Shown piece after piece: positions 1-33,492 of a stretch of DNA of 57,620 nucleotides. Each line of letters begins with the position of its first letter. Position 1 is the stretch's first letter. The position numbers were made by a program, and so were the translations under genes. The stretch comes from a virus (lineage: Duplodnaviria; Caudoviricetes). Location of the stretch: positions 1-57,620 of the IMG/VR virus record IMGVR_UViG_3300031951_000180; one strand, given 5' to 3'. The notes beneath the pieces are model-generated. The model worked only from the letters and a program-made list of their open reading frames with translations. It was not told the DNA's origin and ran no database searches.

Positions 1-180
1 CAGCTGGGCCGGCTCGATCGATCGCCCGACGTCGTCGGCTGCACCCTGGCTGCGGTCTGCCAGCTGGGCCGGCTCGATCGATCGCCCGACGTCGTCGGCT
101 GCACCCTGGCTGCGGTCTGCCAGCTGGGCCGGCTCGATCGATCGCCCGACGTCGTCGGCTGCACCCTGGCTGCGGTCTGC
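1..180. repeat. Three perfect tandem copies of a 60-bp unit (array may extend beyond the window edge)
   Basis: 1-60, 61-120 and 121-180 are identical (CAGCTGGGCCGGCTCGATCGATCG...GCGGTCTGC); no spacers. Confidence 0.97.
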
Positions 181-297
181 CCCCGACCGTAGCAACCCCG
201 ACCGTAGCAACCAGAACCCCGACCGTAGCAACCCCGACCGTGAAAACCCGGAAATTCTCACGCTACCAAATGTCCATTCGACCCCCGATCGTAGAAA
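181..297 (+). repeat. Iteron-like 15-bp direct repeats CCCCGACCGTAGCAA
   Basis: Exact at 181-195, 196-210, 217-231; variants at 232-246 (CCCCGACCGTGAAAA) and 283-297 (CCCCGATCGTAGAAA). Confidence 0.9.
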
Positions 298-329
298 CCC
301 GCGAAGAAAACGAGAAATAGATTTTAGGC

Positions 330-357
330 TTGACTCTGCAAGTGACGATGCTATTCT
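330..357 (+). promoter_or_regulatory. Sigma70-type early promoter
   Basis: TTGACT (330-335), 16 nt, TATTCT (352-357) with extended -10 TG; AT-rich upstream; just before the first leader. Confidence 0.7.
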
Positions 358-365
358 TACTGCGT

Positions 366-421
366 GGCCGGGAAACCCCGGCCGTGGAAACGAGAACCCC
401 GTAAGAGGAAACGCGACGATG
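366..421 (+). promoter_or_regulatory. Conserved early-gene leader, copy 1 (hairpin-GTGGAAAC-GAGGAAAC-GACGATG)
   Basis: GGCCGGG-AAAC-CCCGGCC hairpin, then GTGGAAAC 384-391; related leaders precede ATGs at 929, 1656, 2032, 2709, 3080, 3641, 4065, 5112. Confidence 0.85.
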
Positions 422-850
422 AAAATTTGGGAACAGGCTGACCGCGGCGGCTGCCAGTGTGGCGATTCGACCTGCGAGCCGCGGTGGCGGTATAGCTGGA
501 TGGTCGATCGTGCATATTCGACCCGGCGTGAAATGGTCGCGCTGGGGTGGAAATGGATCGGCGGGCGCCCGCGTGGCGTATGGGTGACGAATGACGCCGC
601 GGCCGTCGATGCATTCCGCCGGAGGATGGCGGCATCCAACCCCGGCGGCACGATGCCGGAGATCGTGAGCAACGGTACCCATGCGGCGATCGGCGCCCCC
701 ATGCACGACCTGCACGCCGCCCGCGTGGCGCTCGCCCGCGAATACCGCACCGCCGGCCTCGACGCCACCGTCGAAGTCGAGAACTTCGACGCGCTCACCG
801 CGGCCGAGCTGGCCGATGAGGTAGCCTACCTCGCAGACTTTCAAGGCTAG
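419..850 (+). CDS. Hypothetical early protein (143 aa)
   Basis: ORF with conserved leader and GAGGA RBS. Confidence 0.8.
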   Translation: MKIWEQADRGGCQCGDSTCEPRWRYSWMVDRAYSTRREMVALGWKWIGGRPRGVWVTNDAAAVDAFRRRMAASNPGGTMPEIVSNGTHAAIGAPMHDLHAARVALAREYRTAGLDATVEVENFDALTAAELADEVAYLADFQG

Positions 851-928
851 AGCATACTGTTGACGATTACGCTCCGGCCAGCGTGGCCGGAGCGCGGAAA
901 CCCGGAACCCGTAAGAGGAAACGCGACG

Positions 929-1567
929 ATGAAACAGAATGAAATCAAAATCGGGATGGTGGCGGTCGTGAAGGTCGGCGGCCGCCTGGCCCGCGTCACG
1001 GTGCTGCGCGAGCTGCCGACCCGATACGATCGCCGCCGGAAGTTTGCCTGCCTCACGCACGATACCCGTCGCGAGATCACGGCCACCGCGGCCCGTCTGC
1101 GGCCCGCGCCCGGCTCGCCGGAAGATGATGCCAGCCGGAGCCGAGCGGCCGCCGCGGCGGCTCGCAGGAGCCGGCAGGAGGAGCCGCGGGCATTCGCGCT
1201 GCCCGAGGGAATAACGGCCGCCCTCGTCGATGCCCGGCCCGTGCCCGGCATGATCTCCCGAGTCGGTCGCATGCCCGTGATGGCGATTTATGAAACCGAC
1301 CGCGCCGGCGTCGATCGCCTGGTCGATCGCCTGCATTGTGCCGAGTCGGCGGTCGAGGTCTGCCGCCGCATCCGCCGCGGCCTGGAGCGGTTCCAGTGGC
1401 ATACGATCCCGGCCACACTGCGGCGCGCTCTGATGCTCGCCGGCCTGGAGCGCCACGCCGCCAACGGGCAGCTCTACCGGGAAACGATGGGGCACGCCCC
1501 GCTGCCCAGTGAGCGCATGGTGGCCGATGCCGTCGGCATGGCCTGCGGCCTGGGCCGATGCCCGTGA
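929..1567 (+). CDS. Hypothetical early protein (start MKQNEIK)
   Basis: Start moved from 860 to the ATG after the conserved leader; 908-934 is identical to 398-424. Confidence 0.8.
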   Translation: MKQNEIKIGMVAVVKVGGRLARVTVLRELPTRYDRRRKFACLTHDTRREITATAARLRPAPGSPEDDASRSRAAAAAARRSRQEEPRAFALPEGITAALVDARPVPGMISRVGRMPVMAIYETDRAGVDRLVDRLHCAESAVEVCRRIRRGLERFQWHTIPATLRRALMLAGLERHAANGQLYRETMGHAPLPSERMVADAVGMACGLGRCP

Positions 1568-1655
1568 GGCTACAGAAGACGACTAAGGTGGCCGGCGCGG
1601 TGCCGGCCACCCTGGACCGTGGAAACCCGAGAACCCCGATAGAGGAAACGAGACG

Positions 1656-1928
1656 ATGAACACGACCCCGAAGAGCTACCGACTCGAGACGAACGGCGCC
1701 GACGACGGCCTGGAGGATGCGCGGTTCGCCACCCTCGCCGAGGCGCAGGAGCTGGTGACCGCGACGGAATACGGCGGCGACGGCTACCTCGTGCCGAAGA
1801 TCGTGCCGAGCGGCGACGAGCCGAACATCACCGCGGCCGACTTCCTGGCCGCGGCGTGGCCCGAGTATCCCGGCCCATGCCCCGAGGGAACCGATCCCGA
1901 GGACTGGTTCGCCGGCGCGAACGACTGA
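1656..1928 (+). CDS. Small acidic hypothetical protein
   Basis: Conserved leader; D/E-rich 90 aa. Confidence 0.8.
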   Translation: MNTTPKSYRLETNGADDGLEDARFATLAEAQELVTATEYGGDGYLVPKIVPSGDEPNITAADFLAAAWPEYPGPCPEGTDPEDWFAGAND

Positions 1929-2031
1929 CCCGGCCGCCCCTGGTCCCGCCGGCGCCTGCGGCCGGCGGCGAGGGGGATGCCGGCGACGAGCCTGCCCCGT
2001 GGATGGAAACCCCGACCGAGGAAACCAGACG

Positions 2032-2286
2032 ATGCCCAGCTATCTGATCAGATTCGACCGCGGCGGCGACGACGAGCGCTTCGATGCCGTCACCGACGAT
2101 GCCGCCCGCGATTACGTTCGCGAGCTGCTGCTCGACGAGGGCGCCGAAGAGGGCGACGGCGGATGCCTCTACCGCTGCGACGAGGGCGGCCGAGGCGAGG
2201 AGGAGTTCGTGGCCGAGGTTCGCCTGGGTGACGACGCAGAGCCGATCGACGACCCCTACTGCGCTGGCTGGGGGGGCAACGAATGA
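2032..2286 (+). CDS. Very acidic hypothetical protein (start MPSYLIRF)
   Basis: Leader GAGGAAACCAGACGATG; highly D/E-rich. Confidence 0.8.
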   Translation: MPSYLIRFDRGGDDERFDAVTDDAARDYVRELLLDEGAEEGDGGCLYRCDEGGRGEEEFVAEVRLGDDAEPIDDPYCAGWGGNE

Positions 2287-2597
2287 CCCCGACCGCAGAA
2301 ACCTACCAGCTCTCCCCGCGCATCGCGCTCGCCCCCGGCGACGTCTTCCGCGTGGCCGGCGGCCCCTACTACCGCCTTGCAGACGGCCGCCGCGTGCCGA
2401 TGGCTGCCCGCGGCACCTTCCGCCTGGTGGAGGTCGTGCGGCAGCGGAGCCGCGTGTATCTGCTGGGCTACGGCCGCGAGGGCTGGGCGCTGCTGCACGT
2501 CGAGGGCCGCCGGCGGTCGGCGGTGCCGGGCCTCGTGGCTCGCCCGTATCGCGTGCGGCGGCTGAAAAAAATTCCGGCGGCGCGCAAGACGAATTGA
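2283..2597 (+). CDS. Basic hypothetical protein
   Basis: ATGA overlap with upstream stop. Confidence 0.7.
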   Translation: MTPTAETYQLSPRIALAPGDVFRVAGGPYYRLADGRRVPMAARGTFRLVEVVRQRSRVYLLGYGREGWALLHVEGRRRSAVPGLVARPYRVRRLKKIPAARKTN

Positions 2598-2622
2598 CTA
2601 CTGGCGTAATTAAGTCTAGAGT
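2594..2622 (+). promoter_or_regulatory. Sigma70-type promoter
   Basis: TTGACT (2594-2599), 17 nt, TAGAGT (2617-2622) in an AT-rich patch. Confidence 0.65.
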
Positions 2623-2708
2623 TAGCACAGTCAGTGACGATACAAAGCAGGGGCGACGTCGCCCCGAACGTGGAAACGAGCACTACCCCCGAGTGGAGGA
2701 ACGCGACG

Positions 2709-2984
2709 ATGGGAGCCATGAAACGGTTTTACGAGGATTGTGCGGAGGCTGGCCGGTGCCCGCTGACGCGGGAGACGTTCGACTGGCTGGATGACGTCGA
2801 GTGCCTGCACCAGCTCGACTGGATCGGCTACTGCGAGCACGACCTGTTCGACGCCTCTGGCCGGATGATCGGCTACGAGGACTGCATCACGATGGAGTCG
2901 GCTCGCCGGCTCGTGGCCGAGGGGCTGGCGAACGACGAGATCAAGTTTTTTGTGGAGTGCTTCGGGGACTACTGCCCCGTCTGA
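2709..2984 (+). CDS. Acidic Cys-containing hypothetical protein (start MGAMKRF)
   Basis: Conserved leader ending GGAGGAACGCGACGATG. Confidence 0.75.
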   Translation: MGAMKRFYEDCAEAGRCPLTRETFDWLDDVECLHQLDWIGYCEHDLFDASGRMIGYEDCITMESARRLVAEGLANDEIKFFVECFGDYCPV

Positions 2985-3073
2985 CGACTGCCGCCCCGGC
3001 TCGTTGCCTGGGCGGTGCGATTGAGCGATGATTTCACCAGACCCCCGGATGGGGGAACGAGAAGGAAAAGGGG

Positions 3074-3532
3074 ATGACGATGATGACGCACGAAAACCTG
3101 ACCTGGCACCAGCTCCCGCGCGATGCGGGGCAGATTGTGGACGTGACCTACGCCGCCGACTGGGAGAGCGGCACGCTCTACCGTCGCTCGCACGATCGCA
3201 GCGACGGCGAGCAAAGCATCGAGGCTGCGACGATCACGGGCGGCGTGTTCGAGCCGCAGAACGGCATCCTGCCGGATGTCAGCGAGTGGGTGACCGGCGA
3301 AGCGGTGTACGAGTGGACGATCCGCACCGACGCCGGCACAACGACCGTCACGGCCCCCGACGCCGACGCCGCTGCGGTGGCCTGGGCGGCCGGCGAGGGC
3401 GTGGCCGGAGTGCATGACCTTGGCTCGCTGATCTCGCACATTGAGGGCATCGACGGCGCGTGGCTGTGGATCGAGAGCACGATGGCGCCGGACGGCGAGC
3501 GAGTCTACGCCGGCCGCGAGAATATGCCCTGA
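3074..3532 (+). CDS. Hypothetical protein (start may be 3080)
   Basis: Purine-rich RBS; GACGATG leader end at 3080. Confidence 0.8.
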   Translation: MTMMTHENLTWHQLPRDAGQIVDVTYAADWESGTLYRRSHDRSDGEQSIEAATITGGVFEPQNGILPDVSEWVTGEAVYEWTIRTDAGTTTVTAPDADAAAVAWAAGEGVAGVHDLGSLISHIEGIDGAWLWIESTMAPDGERVYAGRENMP

Positions 3533-3640
3533 CGACCCGCCCGCAACCCCCGCCCGGCGAAACGCTGGCACGGGGGCGACGGGCGGGCCGACGCGGCCCC
3601 GAGCGTGGAAACCTAAACACTAGAGACGAGGAGAACGACG

Positions 3641-4018
3641 ATGGACTACACGATTCAGCGCGAGAACGGAGCGGCCGTCAGCGCCTCTTATCAAGAGGCT
3701 GAGATGATCGAGGCCGCGACCCTGCGGTGGACGGGAGCCGCCGACCTGCCGGACGGCACCGAGTTCGCTGTCCTTGAGTTCGGCGGCGTGAAGTTCAAGG
3801 TGTATCGGTCTGCCGCTCCGGCGGCCGTGCGAGTGGTCTACTGGGCCGGCACGACGCAGGTCGAGGCCGAGGCGAGCACCTACGCCGAGGCGACCGCGCT
3901 TGCGGCGAAGAACCGGAACGCTCACGACCCCAGCTTCTACCAAATCGCCACGGGCAAAGAGCTGTTCGACGACGGCCGCGGCCTCCGCGGCGAGGATGAC
4001 GAGTTCTATACGGTCTGA
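3641..4018 (+). CDS. Hypothetical protein
   Basis: Conserved leader, GAGGAG RBS. Confidence 0.8.
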   Translation: MDYTIQRENGAAVSASYQEAEMIEAATLRWTGAADLPDGTEFAVLEFGGVKFKVYRSAAPAAVRVVYWAGTTQVEAEASTYAEATALAAKNRNAHDPSFYQIATGKELFDDGRGLRGEDDEFYTV

Positions 4019-4064
4019 TTCACACTGCCGCCCCCCGAGCGGCGAAACCAGAGGAGAGAAGACG

Positions 4065-4427
4065 ATGCGAGTCACGAGGCGAAAAGTTCCTGGCGAGGAG
4101 CGGTGGATCGTCAAGCTTGACGGCACCGCGGTGGGTGAGGTGCGCGTTCAGAACACGGCGGGCGGCACGTTCATGCCGTATCGCCCGTATCGCTACACCG
4201 ACAAGGTTGCGGATGACGGAGACAGCGTACTTCGGGCGCTTACTGCCCAGAGCACGCTGGATGGCGCCGTGGAGGCTCTGGCGATCGCCGGCAGGAAGCC
4301 GGCCAGTGCGGCAGTCAGTGATCGCGTGACGTTCGTTGGAGTTGGCATGGGCCAGAAAAAGACCGACGAGTACGCCGCCGGCATCCGCCGGCGGATGCTT
4401 GACGACCAGAATGGAGGCGACCGATGA
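4065..4427 (+). CDS. Hypothetical protein (start MRVTRRK)
   Basis: GAGGAGAGAAGACGATG leader. Confidence 0.75.
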   Translation: MRVTRRKVPGEERWIVKLDGTAVGEVRVQNTAGGTFMPYRPYRYTDKVADDGDSVLRALTAQSTLDGAVEALAIAGRKPASAAVSDRVTFVGVGMGQKKTDEYAAGIRRRMLDDQNGGDR

Positions 4428-4801
4428 TCTACTGGATTCTGTCCGACGTCGCCGGCGAGCATGGCCGGCGGCACGATGGTGACTGGGAGCCGCTCACGAA
4501 GCGTGATCCTGCGAGCGACGAGGTGGAGCGGTTCCACCGGCACCGCGATGCCGCGGCGAAGGCGAAGAAGCTCAAGGCGAAGGGCTGCCACTGCAAGCCG
4601 CTGCGGCAGGAGGGCGTCGTGTTCTTCTGGCGGCTGCCCGAGCGGGCCGGCGAGAGCGATCTCGTCGATATCGTCGAGTTCCGGTCGGCACGGCAGGCGG
4701 CGGCCTGGCAGAAGCGGGCCGTGGCCGAGGGCTGCGAGGTGATCGAGTGCCTGGGGGCGGCGAAGGCCCGTCCGGCGAAACGGAAGGGAGCCAAGAAATG
4801 A
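4424..4801 (+). CDS. Hypothetical protein
   Basis: GGAGG RBS, ATGA overlap. Confidence 0.75.
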   Translation: MIYWILSDVAGEHGRRHDGDWEPLTKRDPASDEVERFHRHRDAAAKAKKLKAKGCHCKPLRQEGVVFFWRLPERAGESDLVDIVEFRSARQAAAWQKRAVAEGCEVIECLGAAKARPAKRKGAKK

Positions 4802-4992
4802 CCAACCGCGTCACCCCCTACGAGGCCGGCTGGCTCACGCTGCTGGTGCGGCAGGGCATCTGCTCCGAAGACGAGGCTCGAGCGGCCTTTAACAGGGTCG
4901 CGCAGGCCGCCATCGACCAGCTCGAGGCCCGCCGGGCGGCGAAACGAGAATTGCGCCGCAGGCTCAAGAAACGGAAGCCCAAAGACGAGTAA
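4798..4992 (+). CDS. Small hypothetical protein (start MTNRVTP)
   Basis: ATGA overlap, GGGAG RBS. Confidence 0.65.
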   Translation: MTNRVTPYEAGWLTLLVRQGICSEDEARAAFNRVAQAAIDQLEARRAAKRELRRRLKKRKPKDE

Positions 4993-5111
4993 TTGCCTAC
5001 AGGTCAGCAGTACGGATAACCTACAGGCCAGCGTTACGCCGCGGACGCTGGCCGCCGGCAGGGGCGATGGACGCCCCCGACCGGAGAAACGAGCGGCAGG
5101 AGGATCGAAGC

Positions 5112-5420
5112 ATGGAAGGTGAGAAGATGTTCAAGGCGATCGCGTTCGTCGGCGACCGCGGCGAGCCTCGCGCCCACGTCGATGAGGTGACGATCATTGC
5201 CCGCGAGGATGACCGGATGCTGTTCGAGAACGAGCACGGCACGCGGCACTGGACGCACCCGTTCATCACCTGCGAGTCGATGCACCAGACGCGAGAAGCC
5301 GCCGAACTCTGGTGCGCCGACCGCCTGGAGGCCGAGGCGGCGCCGACGCTCGCCCTTGTCGCCAAGCTCCGCGAGCAGGCCGCCGCCCGCGTTGCCCGCG
5401 AGGAGGTCGTGAGCGTATGA
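5112..5420 (+). CDS. Hypothetical protein (start MEGEKMF)
   Basis: AGGAGG RBS; upstream hairpin with ATGGA loop. Confidence 0.7.
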   Translation: MEGEKMFKAIAFVGDRGEPRAHVDEVTIIAREDDRMLFENEHGTRHWTHPFITCESMHQTREAAELWCADRLEAEAAPTLALVAKLREQAAARVAREEVVSV

Positions 5421-5680
5421 TTGACCTAGCCCGTGACACCTGGCGAGCCGTGCTCGTCGTGATCGTCGCCGTGCTGCTCCGCGAGGTCTTCGCAGAGCGG
5501 CCGGCGGCGGCACCGGCACCCCCGACCGTGCCAACGAATGTGCAGTTTCAAGCCATGCCGGCGTGGCCGCAGCCGCAGCCCCCTGCGTGGCAACCAGTGG
5601 AACCTGACCGACCGCTGCGGCGCGTGGCCGCGGCATTGACCGAACTGGGAGACAGCGTGATAGGAGTCGTGCGACGATGA
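5417..5680 (+). CDS. Small membrane-anchored Pro/Gln-rich protein
   Basis: AVLVVIVAVLL hydrophobic segment; ATGA overlaps at both ends. Confidence 0.65.
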   Translation: MIDLARDTWRAVLVVIVAVLLREVFAERPAAAPAPPTVPTNVQFQAMPAWPQPQPPAWQPVEPDRPLRRVAAALTELGDSVIGVVRR

Positions 5681-5958
5681 GCAAAATAGACACAAGCCAG
5701 TATCTGACGATCGACGAGGCCGCCGAGGCCGTCGGCTGCAACCGGCGGGCACTGTACCGCTGCTTTCATCGCGTCGGCATCGACACCGTCACGACGATGC
5801 TCTTCGGCAAGAGGCTCGTGCTGCGGAACAAGCTCGACCTGATCAAGGCGAACTATTTCCCCTACTACTCAGAGACGCATCAGGCGATGGTGAAGACCTG
5901 GGGGGCGGCCGGCGGAACGGCGAAGGCGGCGAATCGGCGGAAGGCGCAGCAGGGCTAG
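5677..5958 (+). CDS. Excisionase/MerR-like HTH DNA-binding protein
   Basis: YLTIDEAAEAVGCNRRALYR helix-turn-helix. Confidence 0.7.
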   Translation: MSKIDTSQYLTIDEAAEAVGCNRRALYRCFHRVGIDTVTTMLFGKRLVLRNKLDLIKANYFPYYSETHQAMVKTWGAAGGTAKAANRRKAQQG

Positions 5959-6248
5959 CGCAGCCGATCCAAAGCGTGGCGACGCGAGTGGCAGGAGCGG
6001 TGGACGAGCCGCAGATTCTCAAGCTCGTCGCCACCACCGTCGGCCTTCTCTTTGATGTGATCTATATGGGCGTCTCTGTCGTCACCCTGCACCAGTTTGA
6101 AACACAACTGACAGACACCCCCGTCGCGGGCGATCACGGCGAGCCTGGTGCGCTGCCACGCGGCCGTGCCGTAGCCCCGCTGGGCTGAGTTGGGCCGCCG
6201 CTCGACGAGCCGCCGTCGTGGCCTAAACGTCGGGATTCGCCGAGGCAT
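5955..6248 (-). CDS. HNH endonuclease (HK97 gp74-like)
   Basis: RDGGVCQLC...HIDHI...GG...NLRLVHRSCHSRRH. Confidence 0.9.
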   Translation of the reverse strand: MPRRIPTFRPRRRLVERRPNSAQRGYGTAAWQRTRLAVIARDGGVCQLCFKLVQGDDRDAHIDHIKEKADGGGDELENLRLVHRSCHSRRHALDRLR

Positions 6249-6558
6249 TTTTGGCCCACCCGGCCATGAGAACGCGATGGCTGTTCCGCGAGAACCACCA
6301 TTCGATGACGAGCTTCACGATCACGTTGATAAACGCCGACAAGACGATCATTCCGAGAACGCTGCCGTAACGCTTCCTAGCCTTCAGGCGGATGCGGGCG
6401 CGGACGACGTCTTCGACCTGCTCGAGCGGGCAGTCGGTCGGCCAGTCGGCGACGATCTGCTCGACGATGGAGTCGCGCAGGCCACCGTGCATGGCAAGAC
6501 GGAAGCCGCCGCGGCGGGCGACGTAGTCTTTCAACGGACGATAGTGCGCGTCGTGCAT
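6223..6558 (-). CDS. Membrane protein (start MHDAHYR)
   Basis: TM segment VLGMIVLSAFINVIVKLVIEWW; fills the gap between neighbours. Confidence 0.65.
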   Translation of the reverse strand: MHDAHYRPLKDYVARRGGFRLAMHGGLRDSIVEQIVADWPTDCPLEQVEDVVRARIRLKARKRYGSVLGMIVLSAFINVIVKLVIEWWFSRNSHRVLMAGWAKNASANPDV

Positions 6559-13718: not shown

Positions 13719-14266
13719 GTTAAAGCAGGCTCCTTGGCAGCGATTTTGGGTGTAAGCTTTCTTACAGGCGGAATGCTGACTGGAGGAAGTTTTTCCAAAA
13801 TCCTCGCAACCTCCTCCTTTGGGCTTGGGAACTGCTCAAGCAGAGCTTTCACCTCGGCGACGGCGGCGTCTTGAAGGCTTTTGTCCCTAGAGTCCCACCC
13901 ACGGCACGCACGCTCCCTGTCAACGCATCGCTTAACAAGCTCGGCGTACTCGTTATCAAAGGTGAAGAACTTGCACCCAATGAACGTGACCCCATAAACA
14001 GCAAGCATGGCTATGGCCTGCTCTGCGGTGCATGAAAACCACTCGCCGTGACTGCGGACCTTGCGCATTTGAAAATGCAGTTCGCTCTCAAGCGATGCCG
14101 CGGTGCTCGGCGGCAGTTTTCCGAGCGCAACGATCGGATCAATCCTTGACGGGCAGCCGCACTGAATCTGTCGGATTCGTGACTGGACATTATTTGATCG
14201 GCCGACCTTCACAAAGCCAGCCGCGTATAGCAAGTAGACAAACTGAGTCGCGACTGGATAGCTCAT
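13715..14266 (-). CDS. T5orf172/MUG113 GIY-YIG-like protein
   Basis: FVYLL...VKVGRSNNVQSRIRQIQCGCP...LESELH...HGEWF; visibly lower GC. Confidence 0.8.
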   Translation of the reverse strand: MSYPVATQFVYLLYAAGFVKVGRSNNVQSRIRQIQCGCPSRIDPIVALGKLPPSTAASLESELHFQMRKVRSHGEWFSCTAEQAIAMLAVYGVTFIGCKFFTFDNEYAELVKRCVDRERACRGWDSRDKSLQDAAVAEVKALLEQFPSPKEEVARILEKLPPVSIPPVRKLTPKIAAKEPALT

Positions 14267-15021
14267 GCCGTAGCCTCCAGTTGTCGCTTCGCATCAATCG
14301 CTTGCTCAACCCGCCTCGCGGCGATGTAGACGTACTCTGGGTTGAGATCAATTCCGATCGCGCTTCGCCCCAGGCCGGCGGCAACGGCAGGGACGGTGCC
14401 GGAGCCGGCGAACGGGTCGAGCACCGTGTCGCCGTGGTTGCTCGAGACGCGGATGATCCGCTCGACAAGCTCCTCTGGCAGTTGCGTCGGCACGCCCTTC
14501 ACTCGCTCGCGGAATGTGCCGCAGACGCGATTGACCTGCCACACGTCGCCCATGATCTTGCCGGCAGGGTTTGCCCGCTTGTCGCCGTACTTCTCCTGGC
14601 GAGACGACGGCACCGTCACGGCGTCGGCGTTGAACGTGAAATTCTTCGCGCCCTTCACAGCGTAGTAGATGGGTCTGGAGCACCGGCCGAATTTCTTGTG
14701 GCAGTAGACGCCGAACGTCTCGTGCCATGTGATGCGGTTTCGCATCGTCATGCCGGCGTTCTGCATCGCGATGTCGATGAAGGCGCCGTATTCCTGACCG
14801 CTGATGATCCACATGGAGCCTGTTGACTTGAGCGCCCGGTAGCACCCGCCGATCCACCGCTGGCACCAGAGGTCATAGTCGGGCCGGCGGTCGGCCTTCG
14901 CCCCAGAGCCGTAGTCGATGCCGATGTTGTACGGTGGATCGGTGACGACGAGATCGACGCTGTGCTTGTCAAGCGTTTGCAGACCTTCGATGCAGTCGCC
15001 GGTGATGATGCAGTGGCTCAC
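14263..15021 (-). CDS. DNA amino-methyltransferase (N6A/N4C, beta class)
   Basis: TDPPYN (motif IV) precedes VLDPFAGSGT (motif I). Confidence 0.93.
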   Translation of the reverse strand: MSHCIITGDCIEGLQTLDKHSVDLVVTDPPYNIGIDYGSGAKADRRPDYDLWCQRWIGGCYRALKSTGSMWIISGQEYGAFIDIAMQNAGMTMRNRITWHETFGVYCHKKFGRCSRPIYYAVKGAKNFTFNADAVTVPSSRQEKYGDKRANPAGKIMGDVWQVNRVCGTFRERVKGVPTQLPEELVERIIRVSSNHGDTVLDPFAGSGTVPAVAAGLGRSAIGIDLNPEYVYIAARRVEQAIDAKRQLEATA

Positions 15022-17499: not shown

Positions 17500-17688
17500 T
17501 TAGGACTGAACCTTCGAATCAATGGCTCGCTCGATCTCGCGGCATTCGGCGTCTACTTCCAGAAATCCGCGCTTGAACTCGACGATCGACTGGCCGACGC
17601 TGCGGGCCACCTTCGGCAGACGCCCGCCAAAGAGCATCACGGCGATGCTGCCGATCACACACATTTCGATGGTGCCTATTCCGAACAT
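17500..17688 (-). CDS. tatA: Twin-arginine translocase TatA/TatE subunit
   Basis: MFGIGTIEMCVIGSIAVMLFGGRLPKVARSVGQSIVEFKRG: TM, FG hinge, amphipathic helix ending EFK. Confidence 0.88.
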   Translation of the reverse strand: MFGIGTIEMCVIGSIAVMLFGGRLPKVARSVGQSIVEFKRGFLEVDAECREIERAIDSKVQS

Positions 17689-17885
17689 TCGACTGCTCCT
17701 TCAGGGGAATGAATCTTGGCCTCCGACAGCCGCATCACCAGCTCGTCGCGGGTCACCTTGACGTGCGAAGGTGCCTTGATCACCAACTTCACCGTCTTGC
17801 CGACGACGGAATCGACGATGATTTCGATGCGAGGCCGCTCAAGAATGAGCTTTTGGCCTGGGCGACGAGTCAGAACGAGTGCCAT
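17676..17885 (-). CDS. csrA: Carbon storage regulator CsrA/RsmA homologue
   Basis: MALVLTRRPGQKLIL...IEIIV...VKLVIKAPSHVKVTRDEL, retaining the RNA-binding R44 equivalent. Confidence 0.88.
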   Translation of the reverse strand: MALVLTRRPGQKLILERPRIEIIVDSVVGKTVKLVIKAPSHVKVTRDELVMRLSEAKIHSPEGAVECSE

Positions 17886-17917
17886 GCGGAGTCCTTTCCG
17901 TTGTGCTGGGCAGTAGG

Positions 17918-18424
17918 TTATGCGTCGGGCCGATTGAGGTCAAGCCATGTTCGGACGGATTCTCTGACGGCCTGCTCCTTGTGGTGCTCGGAAACCCACT
18001 TCAGGTACTCAATCGCCCCGGGTTGCGAAGCGGCCTCAGACACTGTCATGCCGGGGTATCTGCCTGCGGCGAACACAAACTCGCCAGATGGCTTCTTTTC
18101 CTCCTCTGCTGGACGCTCCTCTCTCGCCGCCACCCACTGGCCTGTTCCACAAAAGCAGCACTCAATTTTCCACGCCTTCTTCTTTTTCCCTGATTCGTCG
18201 ATCTCGGCCCACCCGCGCTCAATGACATCGTGTGCCTCGCCGCCGCAGCTTTCGTCAGCGCAGGCGATGTCATCGAGCCGTCCAATGATCGGGGCGACGT
18301 CTCCCGCAGCGCCGGGCGGCCGCAGGCCGGCTTCTGCCTCGACGGCGACCGACGCAGGCGCCGGCCTCGCCCTCTTCTTTTTCTTTCGCGATTCGTCGGC
18401 TCCGAGGTCAAAAAGCGTGCTCAT
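17918..18424 (-). CDS. Zn-ribbon protein with a C-terminal ExoX/DUF3820-like motif (start MSTLFDL)
   Basis: CADESCG...CCFCG; FAAGRYPGMTVSE...EYLKW. Confidence 0.6.
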   Translation of the reverse strand: MSTLFDLGADESRKKKKRARPAPASVAVEAEAGLRPPGAAGDVAPIIGRLDDIACADESCGGEAHDVIERGWAEIDESGKKKKAWKIECCFCGTGQWVAAREERPAEEEKKPSGEFVFAAGRYPGMTVSEAASQPGAIEYLKWVSEHHKEQAVRESVRTWLDLNRPDA

Positions 18425-28745: not shown

Positions 28746-29438
28746 CTACGCAGCTGCTCGCGTCTCCAAGATGTGCCGCATAGCCTGCTCGCCAACGTGG
28801 CGAGTGTAGGCCGGCGGAAAACCTTCCTTGAGTTCGTCCCAAGGGATAACGCGATCCACTCCCATAGCCTGGATGCCTTCCTGCTCCGTCTTCGCAGTCG
28901 AACCGCCAACGACCAGCTTGCCGGTCTTGCGGTCGATCCCCTTACAGGTGTCGCCCATTCGGTGGTAGACGCCCACTGGCTTGCCCTGCTGCGAGTGGAA
29001 ACAGCCAGAGCCGACGAGCGGAAAAGACGCTAGGAAAAGCCGGTGGCGGCGAACCTTCAGCCCATAGGCCGATCCGCACTCAACGACGGCATCTTCCATA
29101 CCTGGGGCACCGGGCACATTTTCCACCACCCACGGAATGTCATAGGTGCGAAGCAGCCGCAGCGTCGGCGTCAGCAGGTCGCCGTACTGGCTGACGCCGC
29201 CCTGTGCAGCTCGGAGGTGCTTCGCCCGCGTGTGCAGCTGGCACGGCGGCGAGGCGTGTATGAGGTCGAACTGCTCTACGAACTTCCTGTCGGCCAGAAC
29301 GCCGAGAGCGCTGCCCCATTTGAACTGATACGGGTATCCAGGGCGGATGACTATGTCCACGCCTGTGACATCGAAGCCCGCCTGGGCGTAACCGTCGCCG
29401 GCCATCCCTGCGCCACAAAAGAGATCAAGCACTCGCAT
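28746..29438 (-). CDS. DNA cytosine-5 methyltransferase (short)
   Basis: LDLFCGAG, ASPPCQ, VENV, RRHRLF. Confidence 0.9.
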   Translation of the reverse strand: MRVLDLFCGAGMAGDGYAQAGFDVTGVDIVIRPGYPYQFKWGSALGVLADRKFVEQFDLIHASPPCQLHTRAKHLRAAQGGVSQYGDLLTPTLRLLRTYDIPWVVENVPGAPGMEDAVVECGSAYGLKVRRHRLFLASFPLVGSGCFHSQQGKPVGVYHRMGDTCKGIDRKTGKLVVGGSTAKTEQEGIQAMGVDRVIPWDELKEGFPPAYTRHVGEQAMRHILETRAAA

Positions 29439-31364: not shown

Positions 31365-31934
31365 TTACATTGTAACAGCCAGTAGTCTCTCGCAGTGGCG
31401 TTCTGCGGCCAGCGCCGTCATTATCTGCCCCTCGAAGGCGTCGAGATCGCCGTCGTTGTAAATCCGGCGGCTGATGTGACGCTCGTCGATGCCGGCTTCG
31501 CTGGAGTGCCTCGCCGCCTCGCCGCCGATCCAGTGCTCGGAGCGGTAGATGCGCCAGATTTTGCCCCCGGCGGCGAGGATCGCCTCGGCCTCGTCGTTGA
31601 AGCGTACGTCGCAGACCGTCACGCCGCGGCCCGCGGCCGTCCAGTGCTCGACCTGCCGCATCAGCCGGTCGATCCAGATGGTCTGGCCGACCATGCCGCG
31701 CCCCCACTCGGTTCCGAGCGTCTGGAGCAGATAGCGAGGCGACTTGCCGATGCCGGGGATCGGCAGTTCCTTCGTGGCCCGGTCTTGCAGCGTCTCGACG
31801 GGCAGGCCCGTAATGGCCGCCAGAGCCTCGTAGAGGGGCGCGGCGAGCGCCAGCGGCACGAACCCCTCCCGCTCCAGAAAAGCCGCAGCCGTCGATTTCC
31901 CGCACCCTGCCTGCCCGCATAGACCGATGATCAC
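31365..31934 (-). CDS. Deoxynucleoside monophosphate kinase (GTG start)
   Basis: IIGLCGQAGCGKST, PRYLLQTLGTEWGR, DVRFNDE. Confidence 0.92.
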   Translation of the reverse strand: MIIGLCGQAGCGKSTAAAFLEREGFVPLALAAPLYEALAAITGLPVETLQDRATKELPIPGIGKSPRYLLQTLGTEWGRGMVGQTIWIDRLMRQVEHWTAAGRGVTVCDVRFNDEAEAILAAGGKIWRIYRSEHWIGGEAARHSSEAGIDERHISRRIYNDGDLDAFEGQIMTALAAERHCERLLAVTM

Positions 31935-32413
31935 AGTTGCAGCTCCTTGCCGTCGAATCGAATCGTCACCCCCAGCGGCTCCGCGAGCCACCGCATCGCG
32001 ATGCCAGCCTCACGCAGCATGGCCTCGGCGAACTGAATTTCCTTCTCCCACCGCTCCGGCGTCGCCTGGCGGGCGGCGACCGAGCCGACCACCTCGCGGA
32101 CCTCGGCCCCGATGATCGCCCTGGCGCAGTCAGCGCAGGCGAACCACGGGCAGTAGAGCACTGAACCTCGCGTCCTAGCCCCGCAGGCGGCGGCCTTCAA
32201 GATCACGGCGCGTTCGGCGTGTTCGATCCAGCGGTATTTCTCTGGAGCCTCGAGCCGCTCGGGCCGCGACTCGACGCCCAGCGGCAGCCAGTTGGCGGCG
32301 GTGAGCCAGCGGCCGGAGTCGAGCAGGAGCGTCGCGCCATTCTGCGTGCGAGAGTCTTCGGAGTGCTCGGCGGCTTCCTCGGCCGCCTTGCGGAGCAGGA
32401 AGGTATCGTTCAC
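31931..32413 (-). CDS. dCMP deaminase
   Basis: EHAER and CPWFACADCARAII zinc motifs. Confidence 0.9.
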   Translation of the reverse strand: MNDTFLLRKAAEEAAEHSEDSRTQNGATLLLDSGRWLTAANWLPLGVESRPERLEAPEKYRWIEHAERAVILKAAACGARTRGSVLYCPWFACADCARAIIGAEVREVVGSVAARQATPERWEKEIQFAEAMLREAGIAMRWLAEPLGVTIRFDGKELQL

Positions 32414-33492
32414 GACGCCCCCCGCAGGTCGCGGTCGCACCAGATCGGCATCGCCTTCGTGACTTCGTTGCGGGAGTGGTCAATCACGACCGCGGCCTGG
32501 CAGGGAGCCTCGTGGCCGGCTTTGATGCGCACGGTGTAGCTAGAGTGGCCGATGACGCTGCCGTTCGAGACGTAGCGGCCGCCGCGGAGCCAGCCAAACG
32601 AGTGGTAGTGGCCGAAGCAGGTGAGGTCGGCGCGCCGACTCGCATCCCACGCCGAGATCGCCTTCATCGCCGGCAAGGCGAGGCCGTAGACGCCGCCGCT
32701 GTATTTGATGGAGAACCCGTGCAGGAAGCGAACCGTGAAGCCGTCGAGATCGACGTAGTTCAGTTCGCCCTCGGCCACTTGCCAGTGGACGTTCTTCCGC
32801 GTCTCCGCGGCGGCCATCGTCAGATATAGGTTCTGCTCGAAGCTGTGCTCCAGCTCTGTTTGGCAGCGCAGCTTGGGGGTGCTCCTGCCATGATTCCCGC
32901 TGGAAGTCGCCACCACGACTTGATCGGCGTTATCGCTGACGGCGTCGATGAACCGCCGCATCCTGGCGCCGATCCAGCGGCAGGCCGGCATCGGGGCAAG
33001 CTGGCTCTTCTCGGCCAGTTCCTCATGGATATGCCCACTGACGAGGTCGCCGCCGAGCCAGACGACGACGCGGCCGATGTCGGCGAGATGCCGCTCGTGC
33101 TCGAGGAGCGTGAAGAACCGCTCCTGAAGCTCGGCCAGTCGCTTCTCGCAGATGTCGAGGGAATACTGGTTCAGCCCGTTCGTCTCGGCCAACGACACAG
33201 GCTCCTCGCAGTGAATGTCGGAGAGCAGCACCATCATCGTCGCTGGGTTGCGGCGACCGCTCTTCTTGAGCGTCGGAAGCTTCTTCGCCGCCTTGATGCC
33301 CTGCATCCCGACGATCTGATCGGCCTTCGCCTTGGCGGCGTCAACCTGCTTCAGCGCCGCTTCGTACTTCCGACGCATTGTCGTCAGTTCGTCGCGGAGC
33401 CGGGCGGCCTCGGCGTCCTTGGCGATGTCGATCTCGCGGTCTAGGAATTCAGCCAGTCCCTTATCGTGCCGACGCTTTTTGGTTCCGGCCAT
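32410..33492 (-). CDS. Calcineurin-like metallophosphoesterase with N-terminal coiled coil (start MAGTKKR)
   Basis: SDIH, GGD, GNHG, LHG, GHYH. Confidence 0.88.
   Translation of the reverse strand: MAGTKKRRHDKGLAEFLDREIDIAKDAEAARLRDELTTMRRKYEAALKQVDAAKAKADQIVGMQGIKAAKKLPTLKKSGRRNPATMMVLLSDIHCEEPVSLAETNGLNQYSLDICEKRLAELQERFFTLLEHERHLADIGRVVVWLGGDLVSGHIHEELAEKSQLAPMPACRWIGARMRRFIDAVSDNADQVVVATSSGNHGRSTPKLRCQTELEHSFEQNLYLTMAAAETRKNVHWQVAEGELNYVDLDGFTVRFLHGFSIKYSGGVYGLALPAMKAISAWDASRRADLTCFGHYHSFGWLRGGRYVSNGSVIGHSSYTVRIKAGHEAPCQAAVVIDHSRNEVTKAMPIWCDRDLRGAS

What the first reader, a model, noticed from the sequence alone, without database searches (positions are those of the whole stretch)
366..5114. 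Array of GGA-rich structured leaders on early genes plus a phage-encoded CsrA: candidate phage translational regulon
Seen: nearly every independently initiated early ORF has a related leader made of a GC hairpin, (G/A)TGGAAAC, often ACCCCG, GAGGA(AAC) and GACGATG. Examples: 366-421, 871-931 (GCGGAAAC), 1587-1658, 2003-2034, 2650-2711, 3585-3643, with looser copies before 3080, 4065 and 5112. Most carry 2-3 GGA motifs, more than a Shine-Dalgarno needs. Two place GGA in a hairpin loop: CCCCC-GGAT-GGGGG (3042-3055) and GGGGCG-ATGGA-CGCCCC (5061-5077). Established: CsrA/RsmA dimers bind paired (A)NGGA sites, preferably in loops with one overlapping the SD, and repress translation. Inference: the csrA at 17676..17885, in a different transcription unit, shuts off the early host-takeover genes after transcription, giving an early-to-middle switch. 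Alternatively the early mRNA sponges host CsrA.
Basis: partly seen in the sequence, partly recalled or inferred. Interest (0 to 1): 0.85.

Follow-up and report, generated by a model that had tools for sequence, protein, structure and literature searches.

The report
Oriented 16-base word marking early genes
The repeated leaders are real, but their conserved part is a 16-base one-directional signal found only in the early-gene arm of a family of freshwater phages, much like the unexplained start-associated sequences of mycobacteriophages, and GGA or CsrA is not its core.

Summary
Observation confirmed. Interpretation not shown.

The leaders are copies of one oriented word, CCCCGAnC-GTGGAAAC. 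Its invariant core is CCCCG...AAC. In the window, 21 matches (3 mismatches or fewer) were found against 3.0 expected, and 20 lie on the + strand at 181-5594. Eleven related phage genomes carry 368 sites on the early strand and 5 on the other, all inside one 6-14 kb arm.

The word occurs in three settings:
- a head-to-tail array upstream of the main sigma70-type early promoter;
- a distal copy, often next to a GC hairpin;
- a start-proximal copy that usually holds the SD, 5-6 nt before ATG.

csrA is real. It is present in every informative relative and absent from 50,697 GenBank phage records. But all these phages are one lineage.

GGA is not the conserved core. Only 203 of 368 sites hold it, two phages have arrays without it, and in a distant clade the word sits apart from the SD.

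The closest known systems are Cluster K SAS/ESAS and Cluster A stoperators. CsrA remains a testable rival. The scan's earlier notes on this concern this same window only.

The parts
1..180 (.). Three 60-bp tandem repeats at the contig's left end (context). Relatives have other long tandem repeats at the same place.
181..247 (+). Head-to-tail array of four word copies: CCCCGACCGTAGCAAC three times and CCCCGACCGTGAAAAC once. No GGA, no hairpin, no gene.
   Evidence: unstructured as RNA, z = +0.13
255..276 (+). Conserved box TTCTCACG-N-CCAAnTGTCCA between the array and the promoter.
   Evidence: visible in 10 of 11 sequences printed
283..298 (+). Word copy CCCCGATCGTAGAAAC that ends 31 nt upstream of the -35 hexamer of P1.
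330..357 (+). P1, a sigma70-type promoter TTGACT-16-TATTCT with TG before the -10. Conserved as TTGACy-N11/12-GAyGATGCTAnnnT in 11 sequences.
321..348 (-). Leftward promoter-like site TCGTCA-16-TAAAAT, back to back with P1.
   Evidence: same site in G002 and G007
366..421 (+). Leader 1: hairpin 366-383, distal word 376-391, proximal word with SD 397-412, ATG 419.
   Evidence: z = -2.65
871..931 (+). Leader 2: hairpin 871-893, distal word 886-901 (GCGGAAAC; its 5' half is the hairpin arm), proximal word 907-922, ATG 929.
1587..1658 (+). Leader 3: hairpin 1589-1613, distal word 1611-1626, proximal word 1634-1649, ATG 1656.
1995..2034 (+). Leader 4: two abutting words at 1995-2010 and 2010-2025, ATG 2032.
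2287..2302 (+). Word copy just inside the translationally coupled gene that starts at 2283.
2594..2622 (+). P2, a sigma70-type promoter TTGACT-17-TAGAGT.
2650..2711 (+). Leader 5: hairpin 2650-2665, distal word 2662-2677, proximal word 2687-2702, ATG 2709.
3043..3076 (+). Leader 6: word CCCCGGATGGGGGAAC (3043-3058), whose own CCCCC/GGGGG can pair, then ATG 3074.
3548..3643 (+). Leader 7: word 3548-3563 (GGCGAAAC), hairpin about 3585-3600, word 3597-3612, SD GAGGAG, ATG 3641.
4033..4067 (+). Leader 8: word 4033-4048 (GGCGAAAC, no GGA), then a separate SD GAGGAG, ATG 4065.
4766..4800 (+). Weak word copy (GGCGAAAC) inside the end of the upstream gene, 16 nt before ATG 4798.
5061..5114 (+). Leader 9: hairpin 5061-5077 (loop ATGGA), word 5075-5090 (GGAGAAAC), SD, ATG 5112.
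4798..4992 (+). Conserved 64-aa helical protein with a basic tail, found in 9 of 10 relatives. A possible reader of the word; function unknown.
5677..5958 (+). Last gene of the arm: MerR/excisionase-type winged-helix protein, found in 9 of 10 relatives. Candidate reader of the word.
17676..17885 (-). csrA. Its own leader has two overlapping GGAs at the SD.

Best explanation
The leaders are copies of one oriented 16-nt operator word, CCCCGAnC-GTGGAAAC, whose invariant core is CCCCG...AAC. The word puts the whole early ORFan arm of this phage family under one sequence-specific reader. In kind it resembles the start-associated sequences of Cluster K mycobacteriophages and the stoperators of Cluster A.

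Host RNA polymerase transcribes the arm from two or three sigma70-type promoters (inferred). Word copies flank the first promoter: an array upstream and a pair just downstream. One or two copies also stand before most genes. The start-proximal copy usually doubles as the ribosome binding site. GC hairpins next to many distal copies probably act on the RNA as attenuators or stabilisers (inferred).

The most likely candidate is the MerR/excisionase-type winged-helix protein encoded as the last gene of the arm. As it accumulates, or in a lysogen, it would occupy the array and the gene-proximal copies and shut the arm down. It could do this by blocking initiation at P1 and elongation further in, or by switching to leftward transcription.

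What is shown: the word, its copy number, its strict orientation and confinement to the arm, its positions relative to promoters and starts, and its conservation in 14 genomes (the window and 13 relatives).

What is inferred: that a protein reads it, that it is read as DNA, and which protein does so.

My odds: about 0.75 that some dedicated factor reads it, and about 0.4 that it is read as DNA by the winged-helix protein.
For: Word and statistics.
- The weight matrix from the window and 14 loci has 353 sites, 347 of them on the coding strand.
- At 14 bits or more, seven genomes have 24-44 sites each. All sites are on one strand in one contiguous arm, and none lie elsewhere.
- At 12 bits or more, 11 genomes have 368 sites against 5 on the other strand.
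- G013-G015 have 31, 32 and 28 sites against 0 in the fetched arms. Whole-record pattern counts are 15, 22 and 16, against 0, 0 and 1 for the reversed control.

The word is not a promoter.
- The arm has conserved sigma70-type promoters, and the word lies downstream of them.
- No sigma factor, RNA polymerase or NusG-like protein turned up in Pfam scans of 85 window ORFs, including csrA and tatA, which do match families.

Points for reading as DNA.
- Arrays of 3-6 head-to-tail copies lie upstream of P1 in every genome looked at. As RNA they are unstructured (z = +0.13 and +0.34).
- A copy ends 31 nt before the -35 in 5 of 11 sequences and 32 nt before it in 1. The bases in between differ.
- Copies also lie inside coding sequence.
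- Strict co-orientation of asymmetric DNA sites with transcription has a precedent in L5 stoperators (PMC9283540, passages read).

Candidate reader.
- The winged-helix gene is one of only two early genes found in 9 of 10 relatives.
- A paralogue stands directly behind the array in G001, G002 and G015.
- Its model (pLDDT 82.8) best matches DNA-binding domains of the MerR/excisionase type. Two of these proteins bind direct repeats (my recollection, not from a call): the pSK1 Par domain on centromere DNA (Z 6.1, rmsd 2.2, 53 residues aligned) and BldC (Z 3.8). Other matches are RacA (Z 5.7) and Pukovnik Xis (Z 5.0). Foldseek ranks TraN, RacA and Xis highest.
Against: - The start-proximal copy sits at a sharply fixed distance from ATG (6 nt in 36 sites and 5 nt in 19, of 87 start-proximal sites) and usually contains the SD. 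That fits an RNA-level operator as well as, or better than, a DNA site.
- Many distal copies abut RNA hairpins whose 3' arm is the CCCC of the word.
- In G001, G002, G005 and G009 the array is followed by a gene, and I could see no promoter between them, so the array may be transcribed there.
- In G007 a near-consensus promoter (11 of 12) points at the array from 1.1 kb upstream.
- No word copy overlaps the -35 or -10 of P1.
- The word is confined to one arm, unlike stoperators.
- All fold matches of the winged-helix protein are weak (Z below 8; Foldseek E of 0.09 or more), and its Pfam hits are below the cut-offs.
- Its gene lies inside the unit that it would repress.
- A second conserved small protein (4798-4992) and CsrA are equally conserved. 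Conservation cannot pick among them.
- No expression or binding data exist.
Confidence: 0.4

Rival explanations
1. The phage CsrA dimer bridges the GGA of the distal copy and the GGA at the SD on the early mRNAs and represses their translation, giving an early shut-off. Arrays that hold GGA would act as built-in decoys or sponges.
For: - csrA is real and keeps the RNA-binding residues.
- It is in 9 of 10 leader-bearing relatives. The one miss is a truncated contig.
- All 3 complete genomes among 8 further csrA contigs carry the word.
- No CsrA match was found in 50,697 GenBank phage records.
- The window has 3.0 GGA per early leader against 1.27 in other leaders, and paired sites in 8 of 9 early leaders against 8 of 30 others.
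- Copy-to-copy spacing falls into classes of 15, 21, 23 and 25 nt. From memory of the CsrA literature, that is within the range reported for dual-site binding.
Against: - GGA is not the conserved core. It is in 203 of 368 sites, 34 of 50 distal copies and 39 of 63 array copies.
- The arrays of the window and of G003 have none.
- The G013-G015 clade uses GTAACAAC, GACGAAAC or GGCGAAAC with a separate SD.
- CCCCG, which this model does not explain, is more than 90% conserved.
- The GGAs of the word lie in open RNA, not in loops.
- The csrA leader itself has the loop form.
- Late SDs (AAGGAG) are equally good sites.
- The copy upstream of P1 is not on the P1 transcript.
- The co-occurrence comes from one lineage.
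Confidence: 0.17
2. The word works on the RNA, as proposed for SAS/ESAS. It would be a standard, insulated translation-initiation cassette: a 5' hairpin against nucleases and upstream structure, then an open C/A-rich leader with a built-in SD. It would be read by the ribosome or by an unidentified RNA-binding factor other than CsrA.
For: - All sites are on the coding strand.
- The word lies downstream of promoters.
- The distance to ATG is fixed at 5-6 nt.
- Early genes use GAGGAAAC about 9-10 nt from ATG, whereas late genes use AAGGAG(G) at 6-8 nt.
- Folds show a strong hairpin followed by an open leader.
- The same proposal was made for SAS, which also have conserved positions that cannot pair with rRNA (PMC3203893, passages read).
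Against: - It does not explain the gene-less arrays or the copy at fixed distance upstream of the -35.
- It does not explain copies inside genes.
- Hairpins are not enriched family-wide under a strict test: 26 of 129 first sites against 15% of random places.
- In several leaders the word is separate from the SD.
- Pfam found no RNA-binding domain other than CsrA.
Confidence: 0.25
3. The cassettes are mainly joints for homologous recombination, like the PeSLs of T4-type phages. Their likeness would be kept up by gene conversion and cassette shuffling, with no dedicated reader.
For: - The arm is hyperplastic. The 14 early ORFs of the window are found in a median of 2 of 10 relatives.
- None of the 14 early ORFs reached a Pfam cut-off or E of 0.001; the winged-helix gene has only weak HTH hits. 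The 10 of them scanned against PHROGs had no hit.
- Array copies are homogenised within a phage.
- PeSLs are GGGG...CCCC stem-loops beside ORFans (PMC2839356, passages read).
Against: - The same core is kept in phages whose proteins are only 30-80% identical. That needs selection on the word itself.
- Conservation is position-specific, not uniform.
- PeSLs each carry a sigma70 promoter, and these cassettes do not.
- This role could coexist with any of the others.
Confidence: 0.1
4. The word is something else: a promoter for an alternative sigma factor or a phage polymerase, a CRISPR-repeat mimic (a hairpin plus a handle ending in GAAAC), or a target of an antisense RNA made by leftward transcription across the array.
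For: - AAC and CGT are the hallmarks of ECF promoters (recalled, not from a call). Arrays with 25-26 nt spacing would place them 16-17 nt apart.
- The hairpin followed by ...GTGGAAAC looks like a type I repeat end (recalled).
- A leftward promoter-like site lies back to back with P1 in 3 of 3 regions scanned.
Against: - No sigma factor or polymerase gene was found.
- In some genes the word abuts ATG.
- The spacing fits ECF geometry only in some arrays.
- Hairpin sequences differ from copy to copy (23 distinct arms of 26), unlike a repeat mimic.
- There is no Rfam match.
- In G001 and G002 the array is followed at once by a sense gene.
Confidence: 0.08

Closest known systems
[quoted passage not shown]
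   Same: Both are short asymmetric words, present in one orientation only, restricted to the non-structural part of the genome and lying a few bases before the start codons of many unrelated genes. Both hold the SD core plus conserved positions that the SD does not explain. About half the copies have an inverted repeat just upstream. Both are conserved across sub-groups while the genes behind them differ. By the 2025 paper the SAS function was still untested.
   Different: The word is different (13-bp GGGATAGGAGCCC there) and the phages are unrelated. Here the word is usually doubled. It also forms gene-less head-to-tail arrays beside the early promoter and is confined to one 6-14 kb arm. The upstream repeats here are short GC hairpins of varying sequence, not a conserved 17-bp repeat. 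This is an analogue, not a member.
Stoperators of Cluster A mycobacteriophages (L5 gp71 type; PMC9283540, passages read)
   Same: Both are asymmetric sites of 13-16 bp, present in more than 20 copies per genome, lying in short intergenic spaces and near the early promoter, and strictly co-oriented with transcription. This shows that a DNA site can have such polarity.
   Different: Stoperators are spread over the whole genome and one overlaps the early promoter. Here the sites are in one arm only and flank the promoter. No repressor with an HTH plus stoperator domain was recognised here. Binding is untested.
PeSL cassettes of T4-type phages (PMC2839356 passages; PMC4122927 abstract)
   Same: Both are repeated regulatory cassettes with GGGG...CCCC stem-loops that flank ORFans in a hyperplastic early region. 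Identical cassettes stand before unrelated genes.
   Different: Each PeSL holds a sigma70 promoter. Here there are only two or three promoters per arm, and the linear part is a non-promoter word.
CsrA/RsmA targets and CsrB/RsmZ sponges (from my knowledge of the family, not from a call)
   Same: There are two GGA sites 15-25 nt apart with one at the SD, and the same genome encodes a CsrA homologue.
   Different: GGA is not the conserved core and is not held in loops. Some arrays lack GGA altogether. There is no Rfam match.

Membership tests
CsrA protein family (the gene at 17676..17885) | Match to PF02599 above the curated cut-off | tested here: met
   47.4 bits against a cut-off of 27
CsrA protein family (the gene at 17676..17885) | RNA-binding residues of strands 1 and 5 are kept (LTRR; the R44 equivalent) | tested here: met
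   Alignment to solved CsrA chains. L3, L5, T6, R7, R8 and R46 are invariant in 14 family members. The role of these residues is recalled, not from a call.
CsrA-controlled leader | Two or more GGA sites, one of them overlapping the SD | tested here: met
   8 of 9 early leaders in the window against 8 of 30 others
CsrA-controlled leader | GGA is the conserved core of the homologous sites | tested here: not met
   203 of 368 sites and 34 of 50 distal copies hold GGA. AAC and CCCCG carry the information.
CsrA-controlled leader | GGA is presented in hairpin loops (preferred, not obligatory) | tested here: not met
   The word copies lie in open RNA. Only two upstream hairpins (3042-3055 and 5061-5077) hold GGA in the loop.
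CsrA-controlled leader | Binding and repression by CsrA | not testable with these tools
   No binding or expression data. No RNA run was listed.
CsrB/RsmZ-type sponge (the arrays) | Many GGA motifs in a transcribed, structured RNA | tested here: not met
   The window array has 0 of 4 copies with GGA and G003 has 0 of 5. z = +0.13 and +0.34. No Rfam match at E of 1 or less. Whether the arrays are transcribed is unknown.
SAS/ESAS (Cluster K) | Asymmetric word, one orientation, non-structural region only | tested here: met
   368 sites against 5, all within one arm
SAS/ESAS (Cluster K) | The word lies a few bases before start codons and holds the SD core | tested here: met
   87 sites have ATG 2-10 nt after AAC, with peaks at 6 nt (36) and 5 nt (19). 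GAGGAAAC is in 44 of the 87.
SAS/ESAS (Cluster K) | The consensus word GGGATAGGAGCCC | tested here: not met
   The word here is different, so this is an analogue only.
Stoperators (Cluster A) | Asymmetric sites co-oriented with transcription, more than 20 per genome | tested here: met
   24-48 sites per genome, all on one strand
Stoperators (Cluster A) | Sites across the whole genome and an operator overlapping the early promoter | tested here: not met
   No site lies outside the arm. Copies flank P1 but do not overlap it.
Stoperators (Cluster A) | A cognate monomeric repressor that binds the site | not testable with these tools
   Only a candidate was found: a winged-helix protein with weak fold matches.
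PeSL (T4-type) | A sigma70 promoter in each cassette | tested here: not met
   The scan flags five promoter-like sites in 1-6400. I take two of them, P1 and P2, as real, and these two recur in relatives. The leaders without one have no such site.
PeSL (T4-type) | Stem-loop cassettes that flank ORFans in a variable region | tested here: met
   7 of 9 leaders have a strong hairpin. Early ORFs are found in a median of 2 of 10 relatives.

The most novel reading that the evidence does not exclude
The word is read twice. As DNA, a winged-helix protein reads it to gate transcription of the early arm. As RNA, the phage's own CsrA reads the GGA-bearing copies, clamping the distal and SD copies together to shut off early translation. 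The GGA-bearing arrays of some relatives would be built-in decoys. This would be the first phage-encoded Csr circuit acting on phage mRNAs, and it would give the long-unexplained start-associated sequences a mechanism.
Probability: 0.12. Interest if true: 0.85.

Novelty: new variant of a known kind. Interest (0 to 1): 0.58.

Why it matters
Start-associated sequences and stoperators have so far been described, as far as I know, only in mycobacteriophages, and the function of the former is still untested (PMC12699233). Here an unrelated family of uncultivated freshwater phages has built the same kind of system from a different word, with 24-48 strictly oriented copies in one arm. That points to a general phage solution for putting a fast-changing set of ORFan early genes under one control. 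Any newly acquired gene would come under that control simply by sitting behind the cassette.

The family also carries csrA in every informative genome. No match to this csrA turned up in 50,697 GenBank phage records. So it offers a clean test of whether a phage uses CsrA on its own messages.

The word is a handy marker for finding the early arm and its gene starts in metagenomic contigs of this family.

Tried and rejected
Host and prophages.
- A scan of genome contigs with the two-copy pattern found 0 stretches.
- A portal-protein scan of the same collection found no relative.
- The Atlas look-up of CsrA gave only a weak hint of Planctomycetota (scores 0.88-0.89).
- The host remains unknown.

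GenBank phages.
- blastn of 1-6000 found no match.
- TerL matches are all below 60% identity and sit in unrelated phages.

Expression.
- No RNA holder was listed among 24 runs. The holders are freshwater and 'fungus' metagenomes kept as contigs.
- I did not use read laying, because contigs cannot show starts or strands.

Known RNA families. No Rfam match at E of 1 or less in 1-6400.

Promoter readings rejected.
- sigma54: GG and GC are not 10 nt apart in the leaders (reading).
- sigma32-like: the spacing is too short (same reading).
- ECF: the geometry fits only arrays spaced 25-26 nt.
- Phage polymerase: no candidate gene was found.

Other ideas rejected.
- CRISPR-repeat mimic: the hairpin arms differ from copy to copy.
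- Pairing of the word with the 16S rRNA 3' end or helix 45: considered from memory only, and the geometry is wrong. Not tested.
- Iterons, terminase sites, Chi-like or polar translocation signals: these do not explain the fixed place before start codons.

Hairpin as a defining part. It is weakened by the family-wide control: 26 of 129 first sites against 453 of 3000 random places, and a mean energy of -12.3 against -10.9 kcal/mol (p = 0.002).

The 64-aa conserved protein. Its model has one short and one long helix, and no fold match had E of 0.001 or less. A ribbon-helix-helix reading is my guess only.

csrA promoter. The site I saw by eye (TTGACC-17-TAACCT) does not pass the scan's threshold.

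Literature.
- Searches for phage-encoded CsrA listed nothing on a phage CsrA acting on phage leaders. I looked at listings only. These two searches do not show that it is not in print.
- Supplementary files of papers were not opened.

Full report
WHAT THE WINDOW IS

The window is a whole 57,620-bp phage record in one contig. It is about 63% G+C.

Genes with high third-position G+C lie on the + strand from 419 to 5958. Almost all the rest lie on the - strand. The - strand genes include:
- the large terminase, portal, prohead protease and capsid;
- a 1350-aa ORF that I take to be the tape measure;
- an SNF2 helicase, a primase-polymerase and a UvrD helicase;
- DNA methylases, a dCMP deaminase and a dNMP kinase;
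- csrA at 17676-17885, followed by tatA.

None of the 14 + strand ORFs reached a Pfam cut-off or E of 0.001, and the 10 of them scanned against PHROGs had no hit. The one exception is a set of weak helix-turn-helix hits for the last ORF. I call this arm 'early' because it has sigma70-type promoters and because of where it lies. That is an inference.

- [GA]TGGAAAC occurs 6 times on the + strand, 5 of them before early genes. GACGATG ends at 8 early start codons.
- The word CCCCGANCGTGGAAAC, at 3 mismatches or fewer, occurs 21 times against 3.0 +/- 2.0 in shuffles. Twenty of the 21 are on the + strand between 181 and 5594.
- GGA is enriched in the leaders: 3.0 per 60 nt in 9 early leaders against 1.27 in 30 other leaders, p = 1e-4. 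A paired-site layout is seen in 8 of 9 early leaders against 8 of 30 others. I chose the comparison starts by hand.

WHAT THE REPEATED UNIT REALLY IS

A scan of IMG/VR with the start-proximal part of the leader found 26 loci. About 15 of them carry many copies of the same leader.

Aligning all copies shows that the unit is a 16-nt word, CCCCG-A-n-C-G-T-G-G-A-A-A-C. In the weight matrix the most informative columns are AAC (A15 and A16 at 2.4 bits each) and CCCCG. The columns that make up GGA are weaker: G at 65%, G at 89% and A at 75%.

The word appears in three settings.
- Distal copy. It lies 15-45 nt before the next copy and often directly follows a GC hairpin whose 3' arm is the CCCC of the word.
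- Start-proximal copy. Its 3' half is mostly GAGGAAAC (44 of 87), and its AAC lies 6 nt (36 sites) or 5 nt (19 sites) before ATG.
- Array. Three to six head-to-tail copies, without hairpins or genes, lie between long tandem repeats and the first early promoter. In the window this array is at 181-247, with one more copy at 283-298.

FAMILY-WIDE PICTURE

I fetched ten related IMG/VR records whole, and the early arms of three more.
- At 14 bits or more, seven genomes have 24-44 sites each. All are on one strand and in one contiguous arm of 6-14 kb, with none elsewhere.
- At 12 bits or more, eleven genomes have 368 sites on that strand and 5 on the other.
- The more distant G013-G015 have 31, 32 and 28 sites against 0 in the fetched arms. 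Whole-record pattern counts are 15, 22 and 16, against 0, 0 and 1 for a reversed control.
- The genomes are syntenic, but their proteins are only 30-80% identical.
- The arm itself is hyperplastic. The window's 14 early ORFs are found in 2, 3, 0, 1, 7, 4, 2, 0, 1, 2, 9, 1, 5 and 9 of 10 relatives.

NOT A PROMOTER

The arm has conserved sigma70-type promoters.
- P1 (330-357) recurs as TTGACy-N11/12-GAyGATGCTAnnnT in 11 sequences.
- A second class, like 2594-2622, recurs too.

The word lies downstream of these promoters. Pfam scans of 85 ORFs found no sigma factor, RNA polymerase or NusG-like protein.

THE CsrA READING

For it:
- csrA is real and keeps LTRR and the R44 equivalent.
- It is in 9 of 10 leader-bearing relatives. 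The one miss, G004, ends about 2 kb past a marker gene that in the window lies 7 kb before csrA.
- Of 8 further csrA contigs, the 3 complete ones carry the word. The 5 fragments have csrA within 1-10 kb of an end and carry 0-1 hits.
- tblastn of this CsrA against 50,697 GenBank phage records found nothing.

Against it:
- All these phages are one lineage. The co-occurrence says no more for csrA than for any other core gene.
- GGA is in 203 of 368 sites, 34 of 50 distal copies, 47 of 50 proximal copies (where the SD explains it) and 39 of 63 array copies.
- The arrays of the window (GTAGCAAC) and of G003 (GTAGAAAC) have no GGA.
- In G014 several leaders pair GTAACAAC or GACGAAAC with CGGAGAAAC. 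In G015 the word ends in GGCGAAAC and a separate GGAG serves as the SD. The window's leader 8 is of the G015 kind.
- Folds place the two word copies in open RNA behind the hairpin, and the arrays are unstructured.
- csrA's own leader has GGAAAGGAyUCC, that is AGGA in a small hairpin loop over the SD, in four phages. So the classical site form exists in these phages but is not used on the early leaders.
- Late genes use AAGGAG(G), which canonical CsrA should bind at least as well.

DNA OR RNA?

Points for RNA:
- the strict strand bias;
- the fixed distance to ATG;
- the SD inside the word;
- the hairpins;
- the position downstream of promoters.

Points for DNA:
- The arrays lie upstream of P1.
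- A copy ends 31 nt (5 sequences) or 32 nt (1 sequence) before the -35 of P1, although the bases in between differ.
- Copies also lie inside genes.
- L5 stoperators show that asymmetric DNA sites can be strictly co-oriented with transcription (PMC9283540).

Points that cloud the picture:
- In four relatives the array is followed by a gene, and I could see no promoter between them.
- In G007 a near-consensus promoter points at the array from 1.1 kb upstream, across a stretch with no supported ORF.
- A leftward promoter-like site lies back to back with P1 in the three regions scanned.

CANDIDATE READERS

Only two early genes are found in 9 of 10 relatives.
- The first is a 64-aa helical protein with a basic tail. 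It has no fold match.
- The second is the last gene of the arm. Its model has a mean pLDDT of 82.8 and is a MerR/excisionase-type winged helix. The best structural matches are the pSK1 Par DNA-binding domain on centromere DNA (Z 6.1), RacA (Z 5.7), excisionases (Z 4.5-5.1), MerR N-terminal domains and BldC (Z 3.8). Foldseek ranks TraN, RacA and Xis highest, at E of 0.09 or more. All these scores are middling.
- A paralogue of the winged-helix gene stands directly behind the array in G001, G002 and G015. That is the usual layout for a DNA-binding protein and its sites.
- From memory, several proteins of this fold bind head-to-tail direct repeats.

COMPARISON WITH WHAT IS KNOWN

- The closest match is SAS/ESAS of Cluster K mycobacteriophages. 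These are a 13-bp asymmetric word in one orientation, found only in the non-structural half, 3-7 bp before starts. The word contains AGGAG plus conserved positions that cannot pair with rRNA. About half the copies have an inverted repeat upstream.
- Stoperators share the polarity and the copy number, but not the genome-wide spread.
- PeSLs share the stem-loop and the ORFan context, but each carries a promoter (PMC2839356, PMC4122927).
- The word here differs from all of these, and the phages are unrelated. The gene-less arrays and the doubling of the word are new features. I file the finding as a new variant of a known kind.

VERDICT

The finding is real and striking, but GGA and CsrA are not the heart of it.
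- Best reading (0.4): an operator word read as DNA, probably by the winged-helix protein.
- Rivals: an RNA-level start cassette (0.25), the CsrA regulon (0.17), recombination joints (0.1) and others (0.08).
- Nothing here tests binding.

Noticed in passing
window 17886-17960 (- strand) and the csrA loci of G001, G002 and G005: csrA's own leader carries GGAAAGGAyUCC. That places AGGA in the loop of a 3-4 bp hairpin over the SD, the classical form of a CsrA autoregulatory site. It is conserved in four phages. By eye there is a promoter-like TTGACC-17-TAACCT upstream, but it does not pass the scan's threshold.
   Followed up: partly
window 255-276; same place in 10 of 11 relatives printed: A conserved box TTCTCAC-N5/6-CCAAnTGTCCA lies between the word array and the early promoter. 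It may be a site for a second regulator.
   Followed up: no
G007 58049-58077 (L066 18049-18077): A near-consensus sigma70 promoter (TTGACA-17-TACAAT) points at the word array across about 1.1 kb in which no ORF has coding-type composition. It could drive a long non-coding RNA or leader.
   Followed up: partly
window 321-348 (-); G002 744-771; G007 59415-59442: A leftward promoter-like site TCGkCA-16-TA[AG]AAT lies back to back with P1. A transcript from it would carry the antisense of the word array towards the terminase side.
   Followed up: partly
window 4798-4992: A 57-64 aa protein (NRITPYEAGWL..., one short helix, one long helix and a basic tail) is found in 9 of 10 relatives. It has no Pfam or fold match.
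   Followed up: partly
window-wide gene starts: Late genes use AAGGAG(G) 6-8 nt before the start. Early genes use GAGGAAAC with about 9-10 nt to ATG. These are two classes of ribosome binding site in one phage.
   Followed up: partly
window 2636-2665 and similar hairpins in relatives: Many hairpins are preceded by an A-rich run (such as ACAAAG). On the - strand they therefore read as a hairpin plus T-run, which is terminator-like and could stop antisense transcription into the arm.
   Followed up: no
all 11 genomes: Spacing between successive word copies falls almost only on 15, 21, 23, 25, 31, 37, 39 and 41 nt. Even values are rare. This may reflect a few ancestral cassette types.
   Followed up: no
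window 17500-17688: tblastn found tatA next to csrA in none of the 10 relatives, so it looks like a recent gain in this phage.
   Followed up: partly
window 28746-29438, 31365-32440, 14263-15021: The phage encodes a C5 cytosine methylase fragment, a dNMP kinase, a dCMP deaminase and an N6/N4 methylase. The set hints at altered nucleotide pools or modified DNA.
   Followed up: no
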